Source: Flectonema sp. DT1601 (Eukaryota). From it: 64,000 nucleotides of DNA. Below are positions 43,301 to 64,000 of this stretch, in pieces. The notes beneath the pieces were generated by a model that was not told where the DNA came from, ran no database searches, and saw nothing but the letters and a program-made list of their open reading frames with translations. Position numbers and translations under genes: made by a program. The DNA lies in contig OZ025781.1 in the NCBI GenBank assembly GCA_964019425.1, forward strand, positions 1,178,001-1,242,000, given 5' to 3'. Each line of letters opens with the position of its first letter. Positions within the stretch are counted from its first letter, which is position 1.

Positions 43301-46300
43301 GTCAATAACTTCGTTATATTTAATTGGAGGAAGATAGTTATAAAACCCAGCGTGGTCTAAAAACTGCCTCAACAATTCAATTGGTGGTTGGGCTCCATAC
43401 TGTTCCTTGATTGGCATGTTGGCGTCATCAACGAATATTACGAAGGTCTTTCCAATTGAAGGCCCCCATGTAGTCGACTCAATTCCGTTTCTACGTTTTT
43501 CAACTTTTCCCATCAACGTATTCTGACATTGGTTACTATGAGTCTGAGCACTGAATGATAAAAAGATACCACTGTACTTCTCTGGAAGTCCTCCCATGAT
43601 CAGACTCTGAATGCCAACAGTTTTACCTGTTCCTGTTGGTCCAGCAGCAATCAAGTTCGATCCCCCCTTGATTAATAATTTACACAGAAAATTTGATCTG
43701 ATCGTGTCTTTAGTTCGGACAATGAGATCTCCGAATTTCGCTTTTGGATCGATCGTTACTTGAGGTTCAGTTGAAAGCCAATGTTTCCATCCTAACTCCT
43801 TGTCTTCATCCCATTCGTAATAAAGATCATACAAAGTGATTTGTGAACCTTCGTATTCAGTCGGTATTTGAGATAGTAGAGCCTCGTCATTCTCTGATAA
43901 CATTTTAGTTAAAAACTCTGAAAACTTAACTCTACCTTCACTGTTACAAGATCCACCAATTGACCAAACAATCGACAACAAGAAGTATGGCTTAATGGTT
44001 AATTCAACAGCCTGTATTATTTCATCACTCGGTTCGAGTCCCCCACAGAGAGCAACAAATTGAGAAATGAACCCATCCATGACACGGAATGCGGAGTCCA
44101 CAAGATTATTATCAACTGTAGGAACGTATTCAACACAATTTAATCTGATAAAGTCGATACACTTTGAGTAGTAGATGATGGATCTTTCTTCCAATAAAGT
44201 TGCGTATTTTGAGTACAGAGGAGGAAGCCTTTGAACCCATGACTTTATTCTATCAGCAGTCGGTGTACAAGACTGCGGTTCCATATAAATCATTCCACAT
44301 CGAGATACCGTAGCAGGAGACGCCACAGCTAAGTCTTCTACCTCGAAGACCATCGTCATACATCTCGACATTTGAATAATTTCACCACTTACTAGACAGA
44401 GTTTTTTATTATCATCTAAAACAGTATTCATCGATTCGATCCAAAGAGCGTCAACTGGACCATCAAATACGACCCATTGTTTAGCACCACTCGAGTCTTT
44501 AGCTGCTCTTCTGAATAGCACGCAGAGAATACCATCGCTCCATTCGTGAGTAGTCTCATCGTAGGCTCCGTAAAGTTGATTCATAGTGATGCTCTTTGGG
44601 TTGCAAATGTGTGTTTTTACTTTTGAATATTTCTTTGTTTCCGTAGTTTGAACTTTTTGATTTGCAATTCCAATCATCGCCTGTTGAAGAACCTTGTAGT
44701 TACAAGTCTTTCCACCTCCTGCCTGACCAACCAACATGAGTCCGTGACGTAAGACAGTCACTTCATAGAGTTGAACACATTTATGAATGAATTCAGGAAC
44801 CTGTTTTGGTTTGTTGTTGTTTTTTTGTTTTTAATAACGTTGTCTGGTTCACGTACTTGAGTGTACTCAGCATACCTGTTGCAGTCCAAACTTTTCAATA
44901 GCGCTTGCAATTCCTTGCATTAAAACTCCGTAGTCAACTTGTGGTAGTTTCACTCCAGGAAACAAGTCTGAAATAATGTTTTCAAACAAAACGATATCAG
45001 CTTTTAAAAATTTTGGAACATTCGAGTCTCTAAGAGATCGAAGTAGTAATTGCGACTCGTCTTCATTTGGTAATTCTCGTTTATTAATCCCCGCAGCAGT
45101 GATGACCGTATTCACAGCTCTCATTCCAAAATCGTAGTGGTCCTGGGTACTCAACTGTTCACTTGACAATTGAAAAGTTTGGTTCATTTTCTTACTCAGA
45201 GGACGTGCATTTCGATATCCGTATGAAAACAGTCTTATCTCACCAATTAAAGCATAGTCGGGAACCATGCATGCGACAGGTCTGAATAAAACCTTTAAAT
45301 TATCAGGTAACTCTGTTCTACCAGCGTATCCTGGATTCATTGTAATGAAGACAGCATGAGTTGGATCGACTACAATTTCAGATCCCTCGAATTCTATTCG
45401 GTATTGTTGTCGTTTTAAAGCTTCCTGGAGGTCGCTTACCTGTTTGATTTGTTTTGTTTTTGTTTTGTTTTTTTTAAAGAGAGAAAGGCACAAGTGGCTG
45501 AACATACCTGTTGGGCAACAACTGAAAGCACTTCAACATCAATTCTGTTAAATTCATCAAAACAAGCCCAGGCTCCAGTCATTGCCAATCCTTTAAAGAA
45601 CTTTCCCATTGCTCTGAAATCAAGACCTTCCTGACAATTAAATACAACGCATTGCTTCGCAAGTGCTTTTGCTAAATCTTTTGTTGTTTCGGTTTTACCA
45701 GTTCCGGCTGGACCTGCAGGAGCACCACCAAGACACAATGCAAGAGCTCCAGTCAGCGTTAAGTAAATTCTGTCTGTTAAAGGAGTAACTACTAATCTCA
45801 TGGTATTTCCGAGGTATTCACCTCCGTAGATAAATTCAGCATCGACTTGTCTGATTTTACATCTTTCATCAGAAGTGTCGTAGTAGTATCGAAGTTGTTT
45901 AATCCAATCAAAACTTGTGATTGAATCTGTTTTACTTGACAACATATTAAAACAAGTATCCTTAGCATGAACTTCTATAGTGATGAGTGCTCCCATGTTG
46001 ACACGTTGTCTTCTATCTAATGGTGACTGAACTACTTCAACTAATTCCAGTAGTTGGAGTTCACTCTTTTTAGCGTACTTCTCAAGACCAAGGATCCCTT
46101 CGTTGTTTAACGCTTCTTCAATTTCAAGAGTCCAATAGATCTGAGCAGCTGCGATGACGATTTGACCAGCGTGGTCAAGAACCCATTTTCTTCTTTCAGT
46201 TTCTACGTATGTAGTGTTAGCGATTGTTACTGCCTGGTGTAATCCAAGTTTCATTCCAAGTTCAATTTCACCCAACCAGACTTCAACATTGTTCAGTGGG

Positions 46301-55800: not shown

Positions 55801-56227
55801 CTGTTTGTTATTAACTTTAATAGGGATTCTCTTAAAAAGTTAAAAGATTGGTGAAATGAAGTTGTATCTAAATTCTAAGAAGAATAACAGAGGTTTTTCG
55901 CGTTTAAGAAAAACGAGTTGCACACTTCTTGGTAATCAGAATAGCCCAAATTTCCTTGCACATGAGATACCCATTCCGCATCGAGATAATACACTCGGGA
56001 TACCAAGTCACATAAGATACCAGTTAGGACAATGAGAGGTAGATGGAATACTCTCGAAACCTAAAAAAGTAATTAAAGTCCGAACCTGATGTTTTATGTT
56101 GAATTGGTAGTGTAATCTCATCTTTCTGCTCTTGTATATGTGTTGTCAACTAAGTGATCCTCAGTTAGGACTGAAAAAGGAAGATCTTCGACAGAAACAG
56201 GAATTAATAATTAACTAATTTACAAGA

Positions 56228-56336
56228 GAAAGGCCTAAGAGCCAAGGAAGAAGAGCTACAGCAACGACAACGGCTGCTCATCGAAGAACACAACAAGGAC
56301 GTAGGGAACAAGAACTTTGTCCTGCAACGCCAACTC
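56228..56336 (+). mobile_element. Decayed, inverted fragment of the retrotransposon ORF1
   Basis: GAAAGGCCTAAGAGCCAAGGAAGAAGAGCTACAGCAACGACAACGG...CTGCAACGCCAACTC aligns to the reverse complement of 62754-62871 (KGLRAKEEELQQRQR...LQRQL) with substitutions and indels. Confidence 0.8.
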
Positions 56337-56765
56337 GTTTCTTTGAAGAGTTTTTGCCAAAGTGAAAAAACGCAAGATATCCGTAAGACGTGACAAGGCA
56401 AGAAGTAAAGAGCGCTTTTATTCTTTTTTTTTATTTTATTTATTTATTTATTTATTTAGTCACATCCCCCCTGTCTTTCCACTTTATTTTTCTTCATTCT
56501 GAGCATTCTTGCCCTTCTTATTTTTTGATAAAGTAAACAAGTAAAAACAAGCGCAACTGTCCTGAGTCCGTTGGAGGACTTCCCCGGATAGGAATCTCAA
56601 GACACAGTTAATATAAAGCGAAGGATCAGTACAGGGACGGTGGCCAAAGACCACTGGGTTACCTACGAGCCATGAAGCTCTGCGGATGTCCTCAGAGAAA
56701 TTAGGAGATGGTTAAGGAGTGTGATAAGGGAGAATGATACTAATGAATTAGCAACTACCAATCAG

Positions 56766-59700
56766 TTAACAGTTTGATAAGCCTGTTCGTTGTTCCAAAT
56801 GCCATAAGTAGCCGGCTAGGGCATGAAGATTTCTCGTCGCAAACATTATTGAAAGATTTAGTTTGGTCTCGGAGATTCTCGCTTCCTGAATGTTTGATCT
56901 AATTGTTCCTTCTCTAATGCGGACCACGTCACCATCCTCGCAATCAAATATTAGATGTCTGGCAGAAGAGTCTGTTCTTTTGCAGAAGGGGCACTTTATC
57001 GGTAGTTCATTTACCCTGAGCAGGGGGTGAGAGCCCGTTCTGAACCTGGCTATCCTTATCTCTGATTCTCTCAGCATGTCCTTGGGGTATCGAGCCGCTC
57101 TCAGGCCTCCGGTAGCATCAAGATACTGCCTAAGCATCACCCGTTTGATCGGTGGTTTCGCCCTTGTTGAACCCTCCATAATCTTACCAAACAGCTTTCT
57201 GTTAGCTTCCCTCGTTATCCTTGACTTATGTGCGAAGAAGTCCATAGTCGTTGACACCGGCTTGCTCTTAACATCTTTTGAAATCTTTTTCGCCAGTTCA
57301 TCTGCCTTGTCATGCGGTTCAATTCCCACGTGAGCTGGGATGAATTGAAGGTGTACGAATGAGTCTAATTTTCTTATCCCTTCTAGTATCGAGAGAGAGT
57401 TCAGCTTCCTCTGAGCCGCAATTCCACCACGCAGCTCATCCAGATTGGATTTAGAATCACTGAAGACTCTCGTGATTCCAGATCTGGGACCCAAGACAGA
57501 GGTTGCTTTTCCAAATTCACTTATTAACAGCTTCAGAGTTACCTGTTCAGCTTTATAACTACTTTCCGTTGCAACAAGTCTCGATGCCATGGTCCGTTCA
57601 CACGGCGTGATCTGCACTGCTGCTGCGCCTGCCGTGTAGTTGACAGGGTCGTGGGATCCGTCAACAAAAATGGACGAGGTACATGGCCTAAGTTCGCTGC
57701 AGTACTCCTCGAACTTAGCCTTGTCCACTTCAGCAACACCGGTCTTCGAATGTCCATATCCGCAAGATATCTCCAGGTTCGGAACATCTATCCATGGCTC
57801 GATGCTGTCAGGCATGACAATCCCCTGGATCTCCATATTTCGGTCCTCGGCCGGTAAAGTTGAACTCCAAGTTCCACTAGCGATCCCCTTCGTAGAAGGA
57901 ACCCAATCCAGTGATCGATACCTGAACAAAGCTATCCTGGCCTGCTTCTCAATCTGCAGTCTCATCGGGAGTATGTTCGCCTCCCACAGTAACGGAAGGG
58001 ACCTTGTGTTGAAGCCGCAGCCGGTGATCTTTCTAGCTATCTTCCTCAGATTCAGGTCAATAGGTTTTAGCTGTTCATCTGTCAAGAAAGGTCCATAGCT
58101 CTCAAGCCCATACAGAATCCTTGAGAGGATGTATAAGTTCTTGATCATGTTCAGCGTTTTGAAATCAAAGTTGAATTGCTCCAACTTTCGAAGCAGTACA
58201 AGTCCCTTCCTCGTCTCATCCATTAGTTTATCCACTTGTGTACCATATGTAAGGTCATCGTCAATATGGACACCCAAGTACTTTACACTATCCACCATCG
58301 GCATGAGTACGGCAGTCAGCAACTTCACCCAGGTCGGATCCGGTCCCACTGGCATCAGTTCTAGAAGTTCACTTGCCTTCGTAACCTCCGTGTCACCCAG
58401 CTTGAGGATCATCGCCCCATTTCCAAGTAATGGCCTACCTTCTTCATTTGACCGAATCATCCCAGCCAGTTCCTCCCTACTGATCCGAAAGAGGTTCTCT
58501 CCTGACGTTCTGGGGAATCCCAGTCTCCAATACATATTCCTAGGACAATCCACCGGCATCCCGCAGGTCTTCGAAACCGACAGTGCCATGTCATTATCTT
58601 TGCACCAACGATCCACTAACCCGAGGACCAATTGCGCCATCCGGTAAGTTACTTTAAAATCCTTATTCGAGACCACACAAGCTGTGTCGTCTGCGTAGAG
58701 TGCTGAAACACATCCAGTCTTCTCAAGTTTCTTAGCCAGGTCGTCGACATATATCAGATAAAGGAGAGGCCCAACAATCGACCCTTGCGGAACACCTTTC
58801 GTCACAGTTCTGTATGCGCTCAGATTGCCATTGACACTAACCTTTGCCTTCCTTCGCGTCAGAAAGTTAGCGACCCATCCGATGAATGGTGAAGGAATCC
58901 CCATCGCCACCATTTTAGCAATCAGTTTAACATGATTTATCCTATCAAAAGCCTCAGTGAAGTCGAAAGAGAGCAGTATCGAACTCTTACCACCTTTTCT
59001 CGCACCATGAAGCGCATTGACCAGCAGTGAGATTTGCTCGCAAGTATTCCTACCCCTTCTGAAACCTGCCTGGATGGAGGACAAGGCATTATTTGACGTC
59101 AACCAATACATTAGCCTGTCGTAAATTATCCGTTCAAGCATTTTGCCGACTACAGATGTCAACGTGATCGGCCTGTAGCTGGATAGCTTTTCTTTGGGTT
59201 TACCCGGTTTGTATACCGGTTTAATCATACCCTCTTTCCAAACTTTTGGTACCTTAGCCGCGAGCCAGGAGTCGTTAAACACCGATAAGAGAAATCTTCT
59301 ACCGGTTGCGGAAAGGTTCTTGAGCATCGCCCCGTGGATTCCATCAGGACCCGGGGCCTTTCCCGCCTTTATTTTCTTGATTGCACGCTCAAGCTCAGAC
59401 ATTACTAGAGGTCCACAAACACCCACGTAATCATTCGGCTTCAGCTTAGGAGATTTCAATCGTTTCCTGACAGAGGTCTTCACGAATTGCTCAAGGAATT
59501 TAATAGGGAGTTGGTCCTCACTGAATTCAGGGATTTGAATCTCCTGACCCCCATCGGCATCCAGGTCTTTAATTTTCTTAAAAGCAAACGCAAATCCTTC
59601 ACCCTGAGCCAATTTCTCGGCAACGAATTTTCCCTTCGCTTGTTTAGTCTCTGGAGTCGAAGCATTCCACATTCGCCTCCTCTTACCCTGGATCCTAAGC

Positions 59701-60629
59701 CGTCTTCGGATGTTTTTCTTCGCCACATGAAGCAGGATACGGTTAAATGTTGCTGCCCTGATACCCACCTTCGGCATACTGTTCACCTTGCTTAGTCGGT
59801 AGTCCAGATCGCATCGGAACGAAAGCCAATCAGCTGTATTGAAGTCCCAGACCGATTTTTTCGAGGCTTGGTTGTTCACAGTCTCCAGAGGTGAGAACGT
59901 ATCAAAGACAGCAGCAAGTGGTAAGTGATCAGACCCATGTTCGGTACCATCACCAATAAGCCCGAAGTGTAACAATTGTAATTCCTCATGGTGGAGAATA
60001 ACATCCGGCGAAGTACCGTGTCTCGGCAACGTTGCAAATCTCGGATCGTTTGCTATCAGGAGGTTATTCGATTGGCTCCAGCCCAGGAGTTGGCATCCCT
60101 TCGTGTCCGTTTTCTTCGACCAGAGTTTATGATGAGCGTTGAGGTCTCCAGCTATTATGAATCTTTCGTCACTCCTCAGAGGGAATAGATCAAAGTCTAT
60201 CTTAGAGCTTGGTGGCGAGTATATATTGAGAATATTTACCTCATCATTGATTCTAACACCCAATGTCTCTACAATTCCTCTTGCCGCCGGGATACTAACT
60301 TCATAGCATGCGTGCTGAATACCTCTCTTTACCATAGTGATGATTCCACCACCTCTACCCGGTCTATCTCTTCTATACGTTATATAGTTCCAGTGGAAGA
60401 GAGGTTTTCGTACTGAGGTCTCCTGGAGGCATAATACGTCGGGACAATACTTGCTCAGGGTGTAGCCAATGAACTCCTCCCTTCCATTAATTGTTCTGCA
60501 GTTCCAGCTTATGACTTTCAGCTCCGAGGAGGGTCCATCCTGCCGGCGTCTTGGTCCAGGGTTCCTTTCAACGTCACCAGCCAGCAGTAGTAGACGCCTA
60601 CGCGTTTCCGCCCAGTCCCGTCCATCATG
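56766..60629 (-). CDS. Retrotransposon ORF2: 2A peptide, AP endonuclease, reverse transcriptase, RNase H, CCHC finger (no initiator ATG)
   Basis: The frame stays open upstream of the track's 60335 start: ...LLLLAGDVERNPGP...LKVISWNCRTING..PDVLCLQET..GRGGGI. Further motifs GDLNAH, GSDHLP, YRPITL, QGS, YADD, KYLG, VDGS, FSDSKS, FIPAHVGIEPHDKADELAK and CPFC..HLIFDC. Confidence 0.92.
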   Translation of the reverse strand, partial: HDGRDWAETRRRLLLLAGDVERNPGPRRRQDGPSSELKVISWNCRTINGREEFIGYTLSKYCPDVLCLQETSVRKPLFHWNYITYRRDRPGRGGGIITMVKRGIQHACYEVSIPAARGIVETLGVRINDEVNILNIYSPPSSKIDFDLFPLRSDERFIIAGDLNAHHKLWSKKTDTKGCQLLGWSQSNNLLIANDPRFATLPRHGTSPDVILHHEELQLLHFGLIGDGTEHGSDHLPLAAVFDTFSPLETVNNQASKKSVWDFNTADWLSFRCDLDYRLSKVNSMPKVGIRAATFNRILLHVAKKNIRRRLRIQGKRRRMWNASTPETKQAKGKFVAEKLAQGEGFAFAFKKIKDLDADGGQEIQIPEFSEDQLPIKFLEQFVKTSVRKRLKSPKLKPNDYVGVCGPLVMSELERAIKKIKAGKAPGPDGIHGAMLKNLSATGRRFLLSVFNDSWLAAKVPKVWKEGMIKPVYKPGKPKEKLSSYRPITLTSVVGKMLERIIYDRLMYWLTSNNALSSIQAGFRRGRNTCEQISLLVNALHGARKGGKSSILLSFDFTEAFDRINHVKLIAKMVAMGIPSPFIGWVANFLTRRKAKVSVNGNLSAYRTVTKGVPQGSIVGPLLYLIYVDDLAKKLEKTGCVSALYADDTACVVSNKDFKVTYRMAQLVLGLVDRWCKDNDMALSVSKTCGMPVDCPRNMYWRLGFPRTSGENLFRISREELAGMIRSNEEGRPLLGNGAMILKLGDTEVTKASELLELMPVGPDPTWVKLLTAVLMPMVDSVKYLGVHIDDDLTYGTQVDKLMDETRKGLVLLRKLEQFNFDFKTLNMIKNLYILSRILYGLESYGPFLTDEQLKPIDLNLRKIARKITGCGFNTRSLPLLWEANILPMRLQIEKQARIALFRYRSLDWVPSTKGIASGTWSSTLPAEDRNMEIQGIVMPDSIEPWIDVPNLEISCGYGHSKTGVAEVDKAKFEEYCSELRPCTSSIFVDGSHDPVNYTAGAAAVQITPCERTMASRLVATESSYKAEQVTLKLLISEFGKATSVLGPRSGITRVFSDSKSNLDELRGGIAAQRKLNSLSILEGIRKLDSFVHLQFIPAHVGIEPHDKADELAKKISKDVKSKPVSTTMDFFAHKSRITREANRKLFGKIMEGSTRAKPPIKRVMLRQYLDATGGLRAARYPKDMLRESEIRIARFRTGSHPLLRVNELPIKCPFCKRTDSSARHLIFDCEDGDVVRIREGTIRSNIQEARISETKLNLSIMFATRNLHALAGYLWHLEQRTGLSNC
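60552..60599 (-). other. 2A-like ribosomal StopGo peptide RRLLLLAGDVERNPG|P
   Basis: Exact match to the D(V/I)ExNPGP consensus with an upstream leucine run. The Pro codon is at 60554-60552. Confidence 0.9.
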
Positions 60630-63600
60630 TCACTTGCTCCCTACAAGTGTCATCAACAGGCGCTCAAGACGATCTAATCTCTCATCAACTGAATTCTTCT
60701 TTTGCTCCTCCTCCTTTGAGGGTTTATTCTTTTCCTTCTTAACCTGTTTCTGCTCGGCCAACTGTATCTGTGCCACCGTCGAATGAGTTGCCTTAGTCTT
60801 CAGCTCCACTTCCCCCCACAGACGGATTCCCTTCTTCTTACCATGGAAGGCTACGAATTCAGCACGCGTATACCATTTACCACCCGTGCCCTCCGATGGA
60901 TCCTTTCGCTTCTCCGGCTTTTGCTCCCTCACTTTAGGGGTTGCCTTCACTGATTTAGCAGCCTCCTTTTTCCCTATCGATTCAGTGAGACAAAGCACAC
61001 CATCAATGGTTACTGTTTCACCCTCCCTCACCGGACCACGCACTACCATCCATCTCATACCGCTTCGGACACCCTCCTTCATCTTCCTCACATTCCATCC
61101 TTCCCTCGAGATGAGGTACTTCACCGCGTCATCCGTCGGGGTACCTATTGGGATTCCAGATATCCTGGTCTCCGGTAGTTTGGCCGGTAGGTGGAGCTTC
61201 ACTCTTGCAGCCTTCTCATGCCAGCAGTTCACCCTGATCCCTAAGCCATGCTCATTAAGAACAAGTCCCAGACCTCCCTCAATCTCCTCCACTTTGTCCC
61301 TTGCCACGCTAATCGTGTCATCCTTCGGAAGCCACATCACCGAAGCCTTCACTGCTAATTCACCCAGATGATCCTTTTCCTTGGTGAAGATCCCTTCTTT
61401 ACCAGATTCCTTCAGGAAGCCTCTCACCTCTGTCGCCTTCACACGCAACATGACGGTAACGTTCAGGTCGTTTACCCTTGCGTTATATGTGTCTACGTAG
61501 CCAGGCAACTTCCTCAGTTCATTGGTGATTTTCAATGGTGCGCGCTTCACCTCCAACCATCTCTTATCATCAACCCACTTCTTATCGATCCGTACAACCA
61601 TCTCACTGGTCTTCACCGTCGCGTCCACATCGGTTCCTTTTGGAAAGATCTCCCTACCCATGGTAGAAAGCCACACCCTCTTCAGGATTCTTTTCATGCC
61701 ATCGTCCTTTTTCTCTTTCATCACTACCTGTACCTCCTTCGCTTCCTTGGCGGGAGGGAACAGGGTGACTAGCGTCAGCGATGCCCATGCTTCCGGTTTG
61801 GCTCCAGCCATCCTCTTCCTCACCTCCGTAGTCGTCGTGAGGTATACCCCTCTGCCACCTGCAGCATACTCGTCCTCCGACAGTATCATTTTTTCCGGCC
61901 AATATTCCGGTGCTAACTCAAACCTACCAGTGTAAGCAACCTCCTTCCGTGCGTCTGCCTCAAATTTTTCCTGCACCGGAGCCAGACTTCCCGAGTCTCC
62001 AAACATCCGTAACCTGATCCACTCACGCTCCTCCAGTTGACAATCCACGATTGTCTTCACACCCTTCTTCCTTTCACTATCGAGCCCACTCACTTTTTCT
62101 TGGAGCAGAGTTAAGCCCTGCCCTTCCGTTCGTTGGCTTGTGGCATCGTCTACTTCCATTCCGGAATCCTCATGCCCTTCCGATGACCTTAGTTGGTTGA
62201 GGCCCTTCACCTGCGCTCGCTCCGCTTCCAGCTCTTGCAAGTAACGTTCTTGCATTACCGTCGATTCTCTCTTCGCCGCCTCCCTCATTTCTCTGGCTTC
62301 CGTTCGCTGCAGATTCAGCTGTTGCGTCACTTCCTCCAGTTGCTTCTTCAGTGATCTCAGAAGATCCCTGAGTTCACCCTTCTCGGCTCTTTCCTGTCTC
62401 AGCTCCTCCTGTAGCTCCTCAAACCGGGGGTCTTGAGGCGGTTGGTAGTGGGCGTTGCTAGAGGTGGCGTACGGCTGGTGAACGTAATAATGATCCATCC
62501 GTTCTTCCTTTTCTTGAAAGATTTGTTGTTGTTGTTGGAGTTGTTGTTGCTGTTGATACAGGCTGGTTCTCTGATTTTCAATTTCCATGTCCATCTCGGT
62601 CCTTAGACTCGACAATTCCTTCCTACCTTTTTCAATTTCTTCCTCCTGTTGTCGTTGTAGTTGGAGACGTTGGATTTGGAGGTCCTCTTCCTGTTTTTTG
62701 AGTTCCTCACTCCTCTGTTGTTGATGCTGTTTTTCTTGATGGTTTTGTTCGCTGAGTTGGCGTTGCAGGACAAGCAGTTCTTGTTTCCCAACATCATTTT
62801 CCTTGGCATGCTCTTCGATGAGCTTCCGTTGTCGTTGCTGCAGTTCTTCTTCCTTGGCTCGTAGGCCTTTCGCTTGCTCCTTGCTTTTTTTCTCGAGCTG
62901 CTTCTGTAAGGTAAGCAACTCCAGTTTCCCCTTCTCAAGCTCATCATCGAACTGTTGTTGGAGTAGCTGCTGTTTATCTTCCAGGTTGGCCTGCTGTAGT
63001 TGTAGCTCCTGTTGAATCTGAAGCTGTTCTTGTTGCTGTTGACGGTGGTTTTCCTCGAGTTGGCATCTTCTCCTTCGGAGAGACTCACTCTCGATTGCCT
63101 TCTCCTTCTGGTGTTTCTGTTCCAGTTGTTGTTGCTGTGCAATTATTATTTGCTGTTTCTGACGGATATCTTCCTTGTACTGAAGCAACTCCTGCTGTTG
63201 ACGGTTTAGCAGTTCTTGACTCTGTAGTTGGCTTTCCTGCTGTTGTTGGACTTGATGATCGAGTTGCTGTTGCTGTTGTAGATGTTTCTCCTTCTGCTGT
63301 TGGACTTGATAATTAAGTTGCTGTTGTTGCTGCAGTTGTTTTTCTTGTTGCTGTTGGACTTGATGATCAAGTTGTTGCTGCTGTTGCAGTTGTTTTTCCT
63401 GCTGTTGCTGTTGTTGGCTCTCCAATTCCAGTTGCATCTGGTGTTTTGTTTGGTGGAGCTCGAGTTGCTGCTGCTGGTGTTGATTTTCCAGTAGTTGCTG
63501 ATTCGTCTCCTGTTGACTCCTGTGTGCATCCAGGTCGTGTTCTAGTTGTAATTTTTCTTGGAAGAGGTCAAGCTGTTGCTGCTTGTGCTGTTCATCTAGC

Positions 63601-63905
63601 TCAGCCTGCTGGGCTTCTAGAAGTTCCTGCTTGCGAAGCAGTTCCTTCCTTTCCTCCTCCTGTTCTTCCTGCTGCTGCTTGAGCTTACGCTCCTCCGGGT
63701 TCTTCCGCGTTTCACCGCGGTCAACCACCGCGTTTGCCCGGTCCAGCCTTTCCCTGTCATCTTTCTTTGGTCCGTTCCCGTTAGCTGAGTGAGCCAACTT
63801 GTTCATCTCTTTTCTGGAGAGCGACGCGTTGGCTGTACGTGCTCCCCCTTGATCCCTACAAATTTTTGTCGGCCTCAGCCGTCCGAGACCGCCGCGTGGA
63901 GGCAT
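60630..63905 (-). CDS. Retrotransposon ORF1 (1091 aa): Q/E-rich coiled coil plus C-terminal globular region
   Basis: First ATG at 63905, 12 nt after the SL; the track's TTG start lies inside the SL. Ends at TGA 60632-60630, in frame with ORF2. An 18-aa (54-nt) tandem repeat QQQQEKQLQQQQQLDHQV lies near 63230-63410. Confidence 0.85.
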   Translation of the reverse strand: MPPRGGLGRLRPTKICRDQGGARTANASLSRKEMNKLAHSANGNGPKKDDRERLDRANAVVDRGETRKNPEERKLKQQQEEQEEERKELLRKQELLEAQQAELDEQHKQQQLDLFQEKLQLEHDLDAHRSQQETNQQLLENQHQQQQLELHQTKHQMQLELESQQQQQQEKQLQQQQQLDHQVQQQQEKQLQQQQQLNYQVQQQKEKHLQQQQQLDHQVQQQQESQLQSQELLNRQQQELLQYKEDIRQKQQIIIAQQQQLEQKHQKEKAIESESLRRRRCQLEENHRQQQQEQLQIQQELQLQQANLEDKQQLLQQQFDDELEKGKLELLTLQKQLEKKSKEQAKGLRAKEEELQQRQRKLIEEHAKENDVGKQELLVLQRQLSEQNHQEKQHQQQRSEELKKQEEDLQIQRLQLQRQQEEEIEKGRKELSSLRTEMDMEIENQRTSLYQQQQQLQQQQQIFQEKEERMDHYYVHQPYATSSNAHYQPPQDPRFEELQEELRQERAEKGELRDLLRSLKKQLEEVTQQLNLQRTEAREMREAAKRESTVMQERYLQELEAERAQVKGLNQLRSSEGHEDSGMEVDDATSQRTEGQGLTLLQEKVSGLDSERKKGVKTIVDCQLEEREWIRLRMFGDSGSLAPVQEKFEADARKEVAYTGRFELAPEYWPEKMILSEDEYAAGGRGVYLTTTTEVRKRMAGAKPEAWASLTLVTLFPPAKEAKEVQVVMKEKKDDGMKRILKRVWLSTMGREIFPKGTDVDATVKTSEMVVRIDKKWVDDKRWLEVKRAPLKITNELRKLPGYVDTYNARVNDLNVTVMLRVKATEVRGFLKESGKEGIFTKEKDHLGELAVKASVMWLPKDDTISVARDKVEEIEGGLGLVLNEHGLGIRVNCWHEKAARVKLHLPAKLPETRISGIPIGTPTDDAVKYLISREGWNVRKMKEGVRSGMRWMVVRGPVREGETVTIDGVLCLTESIGKKEAAKSVKATPKVREQKPEKRKDPSEGTGGKWYTRAEFVAFHGKKKGIRLWGEVELKTKATHSTVAQIQLAEQKQVKKEKNKPSKEEEQKKNSVDERLDRLERLLMTLVGSK

Positions 63906-63917
63906 TTTGTGTGGTCC

Positions 63918-63956
63918 CAATAAAGTACAGAAACTGTAGCTTTAGAATCGTTGGTT
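63918..63956 (-). other. Complete 39-nt diplonemid-type spliced-leader exon in genomic DNA
   Basis: AACCAACGATTCTAAAGCTACAGTTTCTGTACTTTATTG is 39 nt with the 3' core CAGTTTCTGTACTTTATTG shared by kinetoplastid and diplonemid SLs. It is followed by GGACC, not by an SL-intron GT donor. Confidence 0.93.
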
Positions 63957-63970
63957 AAATAAATAAAATT

Positions 63971-64000
63971 TTTATTTATTTATTTATTTAGTCACATCCC
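63971..64000 (-). repeat. Exact 30-nt copy of the element's 3'-end region (next tandem copy or long TSD)
   Basis: (TTTA)5 GTCACATCCC is identical to 56439-56468 and runs off the window edge. Confidence 0.75.

What the first reader, a model, noticed from the sequence alone, without database searches (positions are those of the whole stretch)
63903..63956. Retrotransposon begins precisely with a full spliced-leader exon: retroposition through an SL trans-spliced mRNA
Seen: the 39-nt SL is complete from its first base, is fused directly to a 12-nt UTR and the ORF1 ATG, has no SL intron GT after it, and is co-oriented with the host gene cluster. Inference: this copy was reverse transcribed to the very cap of a trans-spliced element mRNA. 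The element would then use host polycistronic transcription and trans-splicing to define its 5' end, instead of the internal promoter/HDV-like ribozyme (Pr77) of L1Tc/Ingi. The original acceptor is lost on insertion, so further activity would need re-splicing, for example at the AG in SL ...CTACAG|TTTCTG, which would regenerate the same 5' sequence with a relict SL as known in dinoflagellates.
Basis: partly seen in the sequence, partly recalled or inferred. Interest (0 to 1): 0.85.

Follow-up and report, generated by a model that had tools for sequence, protein, structure and literature searches.

The report
Spliced leader joined to retrotransposon ribozyme
A young jumping gene in a marine flagellate's genome begins with the complete 39-letter leader that the cell splices onto its mRNAs, and that leader ends exactly on the first letter of a predicted self-cutting RNA; this copy was likely made from a leader-capped message, and the predicted self-cutter would trim the leader off again.

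Summary
Observation confirmed, interpretation half right. 63956-63918 (-) is a real SL exon: the same 39-mer is followed by GT in SL-RNA-gene-like loci, and its 3' part heads about 100 transcript-like contigs. It heads an intact, young, multi-copy Ingi-related LINE (ORF1, 2A motif, APE, RT, RNase H-like) whose closest named relatives are from the diplonemid Flectonema. An HDV-like fold starts exactly at the SL's last G (Rfam CPEB3 E=0.03; descriptor 1 site in 128 kb, 0 in 60 shuffles). Eight of 8 tested sister copies fused to host genes start in the same register. Best model (0.55): a host A plus ribozyme G1 forms an AG acceptor; splicing swaps G1 for the SL's G; an uncleaved capped mRNA was copied to its cap; cleavage would later reset the 5' end, so no relict is needed. 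Main rival: a source copy inside an SL RNA gene. Only one SL-headed copy was seen; no reads or whole genome were available; ribozyme activity is untested. The scan earlier noted SL-headed retrotransposons in dinoflagellate and euglenid DNA, but no ribozyme link.

The parts
63918..63956 (-). Complete 39-nt diplonemid-type spliced-leader exon; its last base (63918) is also G1 of the ribozyme fold
63858..63918 (-). Predicted HDV-like self-cleaving ribozyme: P1 63918-63913/63890-63885, P2 63910-63904/63864-63858 (1 mismatch), P3 63903-63901/63893-63891, L3 63900-63894, P1.1 GG 63884-63883, P4 63881-63870, J4/2 63869-63865 with the candidate catalytic C at 63868
   Evidence: register kept in sister proteins
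63906..63917 (-). 12-nt 5' UTR (ribozyme P1, J1/2 and P2 strands); the ATG lies at the P2/P3 boundary
60630..63905 (-). ORF1, 1091 aa: Q/E-rich N-terminal half, a family-specific C-terminal region, and a short motif also found in Diplonema host proteins; no Pfam family
56766..60629 (-). ORF2, 1287 codons, in frame behind the ORF1 TGA, with no in-frame ATG before the endonuclease
60552..60578 (-). 2A-like ribosome-skipping motif GDVERNPGP
   Evidence: signature from PMC3708506
59916..60512 (-). AP-type endonuclease domain
   Evidence: Pfam PF03372 and PF14529
58266..59198 (-). Reverse transcriptase domain (YADD)
   Evidence: Pfam PF00078 E=1.2e-37
57285..57677 (-). RNase H-like domain (approximate); no Pfam hit in the window protein, but a hit in its 49% homologue P0004
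56940..56993 (-). C-terminal Cys/His motif (CX2C...H...C)
56459..56765 (-). Presumed 3' UTR
56424..56458 (-). (TAAA)n/A-rich tail
63971..64000 (-). 5' flank identical to 56439-56468 up to the window edge: either the 3' end of an upstream tandem copy or a target duplication of at least 30 bp
63957..63968 (-). 12-nt inverted (fold-back) copy of the adjacent tail repeat, a templated insertion at the 5' junction
56177..56336 (+). Decayed, inverted fragments of a related ORF1 (about 84-87% identity) just beyond the 3' end

Best explanation
This is a full-length copy of a young two-ORF Ingi-related LINE of a diplonemid whose first base coincides with G1 of a predicted HDV-like ribozyme, and it was likely copied from an mRNA that had received the host spliced leader by trans-splicing exactly at that G. 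Shown: the SL exon, the shared G, the element's anatomy, and the register kept in sister copies. Predicted: the ribozyme fold. Inferred steps: (1) a source copy lying behind a host A, or behind its own (TAAA)n tail in a tandem, has an AG acceptor made of that A and G1; (2) on the polycistronic precursor, trans-splicing at this AG competes with self-cleavage one base upstream; (3) because the SL ends in G, splicing restores G1, giving a capped, translatable RNA with a whole ribozyme; (4) here cleavage was slow, and the RT copied the RNA to the cap; (5) transcripts of this SL-headed copy would be trimmed back to G1 by the ribozyme, so the SL is an optional, non-accumulating passenger and the copy is no dead end.
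For: SL boundaries and identity. Ribozyme: the two best Rfam matches in 63700-64000 are HDV-type, CPEB3 at 63918-63870 (E=0.03) and HDV-F-prausnitzii (E=4.1). A descriptor finds one core site in both strands of the 64-kb window, starting at 63918, and 0 in 60 shuffles of the element. None of the 163 SL 3' ends in the fetched loci (duplicates included) is followed by such a fold. The window's alternative frame across the junction (WDHTKCLHAAVSD) matches the junction peptides of host-fused sister copies, including Flectonema's WDRVTRLHAAVSD. In 8 of 8 such proteins tested, the P1/P3/L3/P1.1 core is compatible in the window's register, with G1 at the junction codon's second base; background is 7 of 53,423 positions. 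Family D's residues require a different P1 sequence on both strands, consistent with pairing. The junction has three G (SL's G plus GG): splicing predicts three, ligation of a whole SL to a cleaved RNA predicts four. Copy P0217 has Q ahead of GPHKM, compatible with CAG/G; three other copies follow A-runs. The family is young and dispersed: ORF2 cluster of 74 members, five full-length copies about 96-97% identical; ORF1 copies over 99% identical on other contigs. The contig is genomic DNA of 1.01 Mb with GT-AG introns in the dynein gene. R2 precedent for cleavage erasing upstream sequence at each cycle: PMC3774820 passages.
Against: Only one SL-headed copy was seen and no DNA of other copies could be read; their junctions are inferred from proteins. 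Both Rfam matches are far below their gathering scores (17.7 vs 35 and 13.5 vs 44 bits). The descriptor was written after the fold had been spotted. In pseudoknot-free folding an alternative 8-bp hairpin outcompetes P1 (mean P1 pairing 0.20 alone, 0.04 with the SL, 0.004 with more downstream sequence), and the MFE z-score of the ribozyme stretch is only -1.0, so this copy's ribozyme may be weak or dead. G is not enriched after the SL in 102 transcript-like contigs (21 of 102), and a UTR of 12 nt or less is rare there (2 of 102). Putative host trans-acceptors in the window mostly follow pyrimidine tracts, whereas the A+G1 acceptor would follow an A-run (the two dynein cis-introns do end in A-rich tracts). 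Several sister junctions have T or G before G1, so no AG forms there. L1Tc RNAs were found to be unspliced (PMC1874656 section 19). A source copy in an SL gene would give the same product.
Confidence: 0.55

Rival explanations
1. A source copy sits in an SL RNA gene at the exon-intron boundary and is transcribed from the SL promoter. The capped SL-element RNA arises without splicing and was retroposed to this dispersed site. The ribozyme still resets the 5' end.
For: SL genes read exon-G/GT, which offers GG microhomology to the element's start. Sister families appear to insert at fixed positions of multi-copy host genes. CRE, SLACS and CZAR live in SL genes (PMC12278014 and PMC5814959 passages). 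L062 and L072 show the 3' part of an SL directly followed by non-GT sequence next to RT-coding frames.
Against: This copy has no SL-gene flank or SL remnant at its 3' end. Copies of the closest subfamilies with a visible junction follow A-runs or other sequence, not SL. The known SL-targeting elements are RLE-type and insert between nt 11 and 12; this one is APE-type. Splicing predicts the exact exon end with no further assumption.
Confidence: 0.2
2. The RT copied a ribozyme-cleaved RNA to G1 and then jumped, using the single shared G, onto a free SL exon (a splicing intermediate); or a related 5'-joining accident occurred. No trans-splicing of the element was involved.
For: The element ends at G1 in all families, which is where an RT runs off a cleaved RNA. 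The junction already carries a templated 12-nt insertion and a possible tandem partner. P0217 has a duplicated 5' start. A putative template jump to a cellular RNA is listed for R2 (PMC3774820).
Against: It needs a jump onto the exact 3' end of the exon, a short-lived intermediate (established knowledge); a jump onto SL RNA or an mRNA would bring intron or UTR sequence along. End-to-end ligation would give four G, not three.
Confidence: 0.12
3. One reading: the family has no ribozyme or promoter of its own, trans-splicing alone defines the 5' end, and SL-headed copies go on by re-splicing inside the SL.
For: SL fused at the exon end; co-orientation with host genes; the predicted ribozyme may misfold in this copy; a 16-nt relict exists in L106 from another organism.
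Against: An HDV-like fold lies at the junction and is kept in register across families and in Flectonema. This copy has no relict. Sister copies start at G1 without SL.
Confidence: 0.08
4. The joint is an assembly or library chimera.
For: The joint could not be checked against reads. Some copies in the same collection carry frameshifts (P0001, P0337), so the assembly may contain errors.
Against: The contig is 1.01 Mb of intron-containing genomic DNA. The SL is complete to its first base and lies between genomic-type junction sequence and the exact G1. The fold-back insertion looks like a DNA-level integration scar (inference).
Confidence: 0.05

Closest known systems
L1Tc/Ingi of trypanosomatids (Pr77 promoter plus L1TcRz HDV-like ribozyme)
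   Same: APE-RT-RNase H-type ORF with an N-terminal 2A motif; an HDV-like fold at base 1; a host with polycistronic transcription; single and tandem copies (PMC3185411, PMC4035085, PMC5814959, PMC3708506 passages). The RT falls in a 14-row group with the Angomonas deanei protein P0073 (SH-aLRT 92, quick tree).
   Different: L1Tc RNAs are unspliced and lack the SL (PMC1874656 section 19). Ingi-clade elements are described as lacking ORF1 (PMC3708506), whereas this element has a 1091-aa ORF1 whose ATG lies inside the ribozyme, a (TAAA)n tail, and an SL joined at G1. Promoter activity was not testable.
R2 and other non-LTR elements with HDV-like ribozymes
   Same: Self-cleavage releases the element from a host co-transcript and erases upstream sequence each cycle; 5' junctions vary and carry extra nucleotides (PMC3774820 passages).
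   Different: R2 is RLE-type and rDNA-specific, with no trans-splicing. Here the cleavage site coincides with a splice joint.
CRE1/SLACS/CZAR (and NeSL) SL-gene-specific retrotransposons
   Same: SL sequence directly next to a non-LTR element.
   Different: They are RLE-type, insert between SL nt 11 and 12 inside SL RNA genes (PMC5814959, PMC12278014 passages) and keep SL-gene flanks. This copy is APE-type, dispersed, and has no SL-gene flank.
Dinoflagellate SL-tagged retrogenes
   Same: A genomic SL is the footprint of a reverse-transcribed trans-spliced mRNA (PMC12014239 passages).
   Different: Those are passive host-gene copies that accumulate relicts. Here the autonomous element itself carries a whole SL, has no relict, and has a predicted means of removing it.

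Membership tests
Euglenozoan SL exon | 39-nt exon followed by GT in SL RNA genes and found at mRNA 5' ends | tested here: met
   Identical 39-mer + GT at 7 sites in 6 loci; 106 of 130 matches of its 3' part lie within 60 nt of a contig end
SL RNA gene | Exon followed by a GT intron within an SL repeat unit | tested here: not met
   Followed by GG and ORF1; the upstream flank repeats the element's 3' end
HDV-like ribozyme | Nested double pseudoknot P1, P1.1, P2, P3, P4 with L3 consensus and C-N-R-A in J4/2 | tested here: met
   All parts present, P2 with one mismatch; Rfam CPEB3 E=0.03, below gathering
HDV-like ribozyme | Structure kept across homologues | tested here: inconclusive
   Core compatible in register in 8 of 8 host-fused and 4 of 4 ATG-bearing proteins (the latter with the window's UTR assumed, one being the window's own); background 7 of 53,423; based on back-translation, not DNA
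HDV-like ribozyme | Self-cleavage 5' of G1 | not testable with these tools
   Needs an in vitro assay; a competing hairpin is predicted
Ingi/L1Tc clade | APE and RT domains | tested here: met
Ingi/L1Tc clade | RNase H domain | tested here: inconclusive
   No Pfam hit in the window protein; motif residues present; hit in the 49% homologue P0004
Ingi/L1Tc clade | 2A motif ahead of APE | tested here: met
   GDVERNPGP at ORF2 residues 18-26; 2A also occurs in other clades
Ingi/L1Tc clade | Single ORF, no ORF1 | tested here: not met
   A separate 1091-aa ORF1, kept in sister families and in Flectonema
Ingi/L1Tc clade | RT phylogeny within Ingi | tested here: inconclusive
   Groups with Flectonema elements (98) and loosely with Angomonas P0073 (92); quick tree, no named Ingi references
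Ingi/L1Tc clade | Pr77 sequence with promoter activity and unspliced RNA | not tested
   No Pr77 sequence was on hand from a tool; activity needs experiments
CRE/SLACS/CZAR | RLE endonuclease; insertion between SL nt 11 and 12 in SL genes | tested here: not met
   APE endonuclease; no SL sequence at the 3' flank
TPRT insertion | Target site duplication flanking the copy | tested here: inconclusive
   A repeat of at least 30 nt is cut by the window edge; TSD and tandem copy cannot be told apart

The most novel reading that the evidence does not exclude
This diplonemid LINE lineage runs a two-way switch on one nucleotide. G1 of its HDV-like ribozyme is at once the self-cleavage boundary and the G of a trans-splice acceptor completed by the A-rich target or the element's own tail. 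Splicing yields the capped mRNA that makes ORF1, whose start codon is buried in the ribozyme. Cleavage yields the uncapped template for transposition. Because the SL ends in G, the spliced RNA can still be converted into the cleaved form. Sister families solve the same problem differently, by inserting in frame at fixed sites of multi-copy host genes and borrowing their acceptor and start codon.
Probability: 0.25. Interest if true: 0.85.

Novelty: new variant of a known kind. Interest (0 to 1): 0.62.

Why it matters
Ribozyme-cut retrotransposon RNAs have no cap, and how they are translated is an open question; for L1Tc an IRES has been suggested (PMC3185411 passages). In a host where essentially all mRNAs are SL-capped (PMC10161547 passage), an SL joined precisely at the cleavage nucleotide points to a simple alternative: splice to translate, cleave to transpose. 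It can be tested with one 100-nt RNA and SL-primed sequencing. It also extends 5' HDV-like ribozymes and 2A-bearing Ingi-related LINEs to diplonemids, in a two-ORF form. If the joint proves a one-off, what remains is a clear record of an RT reaching the cap and a new diplonemid LINE lineage.

Tried and rejected
No whole genome is held for the window, so copies could not be counted by their 5' ends and the flank beyond 64000 could not be read. No sequencing run was listed for 60000-64000 (none was listed, which is no evidence), so no reads were laid. The element's own 5' sequence gave 0 matches in metagenome contigs. The ORF2 search of viral contigs gave no relative. Rfam at gathering threshold found nothing in the window; the ribozyme appeared only with the E-value threshold. 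tblastn of ORF1 and ORF2 proteins against all 136 loci then held found no member of this family behind an SL; the only hits were a distant RT (L072) and a short host motif (L014). No SL-derived peptide was found in the first 120 residues of any fetched protein, but an in-frame stop in the SL would hide it in the ORF1 frame. A search for short ORF1 N-terminal pieces gave one protein, which starts at the same Met and says nothing on the junction. I first read the host-fused sister ORF1s as evidence of a lineage without a 5' module of its own, and dropped that once their junction peptides proved to be the ribozyme read in another frame. The idea that the SL's 5' arm shuts the ribozyme by pairing with G1-G2 got only 0.19-0.58 pairing probability and is not relied on. 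The viral record could not be searched as a whole. The protein atlas did not answer. The careful RT tree did not finish; the quick tree was used. The original CZAR and CRE1 papers are not held, so CRE1's duplication reaching the exon end is recalled only. In the supplements of PMC10161547, 7 files were searched with no SL hit; its Additional file 1 text on repeats may not have been among them and could bear on novelty.

Full report
1. Observation. The minus strand carries a 39-nt SL exon at 63956-63918, a 12-nt UTR and the ATG of a 1091-codon ORF at 63905; GG follows the exon, not GT. No other 12-mer of it occurs in the window. The exact 39-mer is followed by GT at 7 sites in 6 loci, one of which (L018) also carries U4, U5 and SRP RNA genes. 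So it is a genuine SL exon, complete at both ends. It differs at 2 positions from the 'Euglenozoa 14' leader listed in PMC3795323 (passage); that this row is Diplonema's leader is recalled. 19 of 21 long ORFs share the element's strand.

2. Host and element. The window is genomic DNA: two GT-AG introns interrupt a dynein gene, and its proteins are recorded on a 1,013,941-bp contig. Behind ORF1's TGA, in the same frame, runs a 1287-codon ORF2 with a 2A-like motif, AP endonuclease, RT, an RNase H-like region and a C-terminal Cys/His motif. A presumed 3' UTR and a (TAAA)n tail follow. The best named ORF2 relatives are Flectonema neradi transcripts at 41-49% identity, with which the window's RT forms a clade (SH-aLRT 98, quick tree). 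ORF1 has a Flectonema relative and shares a short motif with Diplonema proteins. The host is therefore inferred to be a classical diplonemid. The family is young: the ORF2 cluster has 74 members, five other full-length copies are about 96-97% identical, and two ORF1 copies on other contigs are over 99% identical.

3. The 5' end is a ribozyme. With an E-value threshold, the two best of three Rfam matches in 63700-64000 are HDV-type ribozymes; the better (CPEB3, E=0.03, 17.7 bits against a gathering score of 35) starts at 63918, the SL's last base. The 61 nt from there contain every part of the HDV fold: P1 (6 bp), P2 (7 bp, one mismatch), P3, a 7-nt L3 of the consensus type, the P1.1 GG, a 4-bp P4, and a J4/2 with C-N-R-A. 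A descriptor, written after I had seen the fold, finds this one site in both strands of the window and none in 60 dinucleotide shuffles of the 7.56-kb element. A relaxed version finds none behind 163 SL ends in the fetched loci, duplicates included. The ORF1 start codon lies at the P2/P3 boundary.

Independent support comes from sister copies whose ORF1 was called as a fusion to a host gene. Three follow BspA-type LRR genes, three follow cathepsin-like genes, four follow another gene, and one Flectonema transcript (two isoforms) follows an LRR-like N-terminus. Their junction peptides are the ribozyme read in another frame: window WDHTKCLHAAVSD, Flectonema WDRVTRLHAAVSD, others WDHDTCLLAAVPD and RELCICLLGALLD. 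I tested 8 of these 11 proteins by degenerate back-translation. In all 8 the core is compatible in the window's register, with G1 at the second base of the junction codon; background is 7 of 53,423 positions in 14 control proteins. The 8 represent only three independent families. So the lineage's 5' end is G1 of this fold, and in the window that G is supplied by, or shared with, the SL.

Against activity in this copy: pseudoknot-free folding prefers an alternative 8-bp hairpin, with P1 pairing at 0.20 alone, 0.04 with the SL and 0.004 with more 3' sequence, and the MFE z-score is -1.0. Attenuation by downstream sequence is reported for L1TcRz (PMC3185411, passages).

4. The flank. The 30 nt at 63971-64000 are identical to 56439-56468, the 3' end and tail of the element, up to the window edge. 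Between them and the SL lie two A and 12 nt that are the reverse complement of the tail. This is either a head-to-tail tandem or a long target duplication, with a fold-back insertion at the joint; the window cannot tell which. It is not an SL RNA gene.

5. Mechanism. Since the SL ends in G and the element starts GGG, an A before G1 makes an AG acceptor whose use swaps G1 for the SL's G and leaves the ribozyme whole. The three G at the joint fit this; ligation of a whole SL to a cleaved RNA would leave four. Such an A is easy to come by: the element's own tail ends in A, three truncated copies follow A-runs, and copy P0217 has Q ahead of GPHKM, compatible with CAG/G. I infer that a capped, uncleaved mRNA of that kind was copied to its cap. 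This copy has no relict, so its parent was not re-spliced inside an SL. Cleavage at G1 would strip the SL from this copy's transcripts, as R2 cleavage erases upstream sequence each cycle (PMC3774820, passages).

Results against this reading: G is not favoured after the SL (21 of 102 transcript-like contigs) and UTRs of 12 nt or less are rare (2 of 102) (matches more than 60 nt from a contig end, and those followed by GTAT, GTAA or GTAC, were left out of that count). Putative host trans-acceptors mostly follow pyrimidine tracts. Several sister junctions have T or G before G1. L106 shows that the internal-AG relict exists in another organism. A source copy inside an SL RNA gene, transcribed from the SL promoter, would give the same product and cannot be excluded (0.2). 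A template jump onto a free SL exon is possible (0.12). In the best model and the first rival alike, the template was an SL-headed RNA copied to its first base (about 0.75 together).

6. Comparison. It works like L1Tc/Ingi in carrying an HDV-like fold at base 1 and a 2A-APE-RT protein, but it has a separate ORF1, which Ingi-clade elements are said to lack (PMC3708506, passages), and L1Tc RNAs lack the SL (PMC1874656, abstract and section 19). I therefore call it Ingi-related, not a member. It is not a CRE/SLACS/CZAR element (PMC12278014, PMC5814959 and PMC3636483 passages). It differs from dinoflagellate retrogenes in being autonomous and relict-free (PMC12014239, passages). The Diplonema genome paper lists LINE and SLACS ORFs and defers a rigorous analysis (PMC10161547, passages and a search of 7 supplementary files). 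PMC4035085 was seen as passages.

7. Novelty. Nine literature searches (listings and abstract starts, plus the passages cited) showed no paper on an SL joined to the ribozyme start of a LINE, nor on a 5' ribozyme in a diplonemid LINE; the library lacks most subscription papers. The scan's own notes report SL-headed retrotransposons in a dinoflagellate and a euglenid (unchecked) and none with a ribozyme at the joint. Verdict: a new variant of a known kind. Interest 0.62, limited by the single copy and the lack of reads and assays.

Noticed in passing
L001-L004, L126-L136 (three IMG/VR contigs); L061, L065, L112, L121: Virus-like contigs carry the same or a near-identical SL exon without GT, ahead of ORFs and mostly about 15-20 nt behind an AAAA(T)TGA motif (giant-virus early promoter, recalled): 9 distinct sites in one 238-kb contig, one each in two other viral contigs and in four metagenome contigs. 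This suggests giant viruses of diplonemids that hard-code the host leader; the scan noted the like for kinetoplastid viruses.
   Followed up: partly
proteins P0200, P0224, P0336, P0231; P0232, P0330, P0331; P0327, P0328, P0332, P0333: Sister LINE families are joined in frame to host genes at fixed positions: the same repeat register in different BspA-LRR genes (also in Flectonema) and the same codon in two cathepsin paralogues that are 58% identical while the element parts are over 99% identical. They have no Met for 91-288 residues after the joint. This suggests site-specific insertion into multi-copy protein genes with a borrowed start codon; gene calling favours in-frame cases.
   Followed up: partly
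window 60552-60632 (-): ORF2 follows ORF1's TGA in the same frame with no in-frame ATG before the 2A motif; an ATG ATG lies out of frame just behind the stop. Related families have an in-frame Met before the 2A. Readthrough, reinitiation with a frameshift, or a 1-nt lesion are all possible.
   Followed up: no
window 45436-45505 and 44737-44867 region (-): The two cis-introns of the dynein gene end in A/C-rich tracts before the AG, not in pyrimidine tracts, unlike most putative trans-splice acceptors of the window.
   Followed up: no
L072 694-718 (-) and L062 20-44 (+): An A-run joined to the last ~29 nt of an SL and then to non-GT sequence: in L072 at the 3' end of an APE-RT-RNase H element, in L062 ahead of a 2965-codon frame with an RT match. 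This resembles CRE-type tandem junctions, but one neighbour is APE-type.
   Followed up: partly
L106 67-107: An SL followed directly by a 16-nt SL relict, the product expected from splicing at the SL's internal AG.
   Followed up: no
L018; L079: An SL RNA gene clustered with U4, U5, SRP and a weak U3 match (L018), and one next to eight tRNA genes (L079).
   Followed up: no
window 60780-60900 (-), ORF1 residues about 998-1034: ORF1 contains one copy of a ~35-aa motif that is repeated in Diplonema host proteins and in L014, with no Pfam family.
   Followed up: partly
window 56177-56336 (+): Decayed inverted pieces of a related ORF1 lie next to the 3' end.
   Followed up: no
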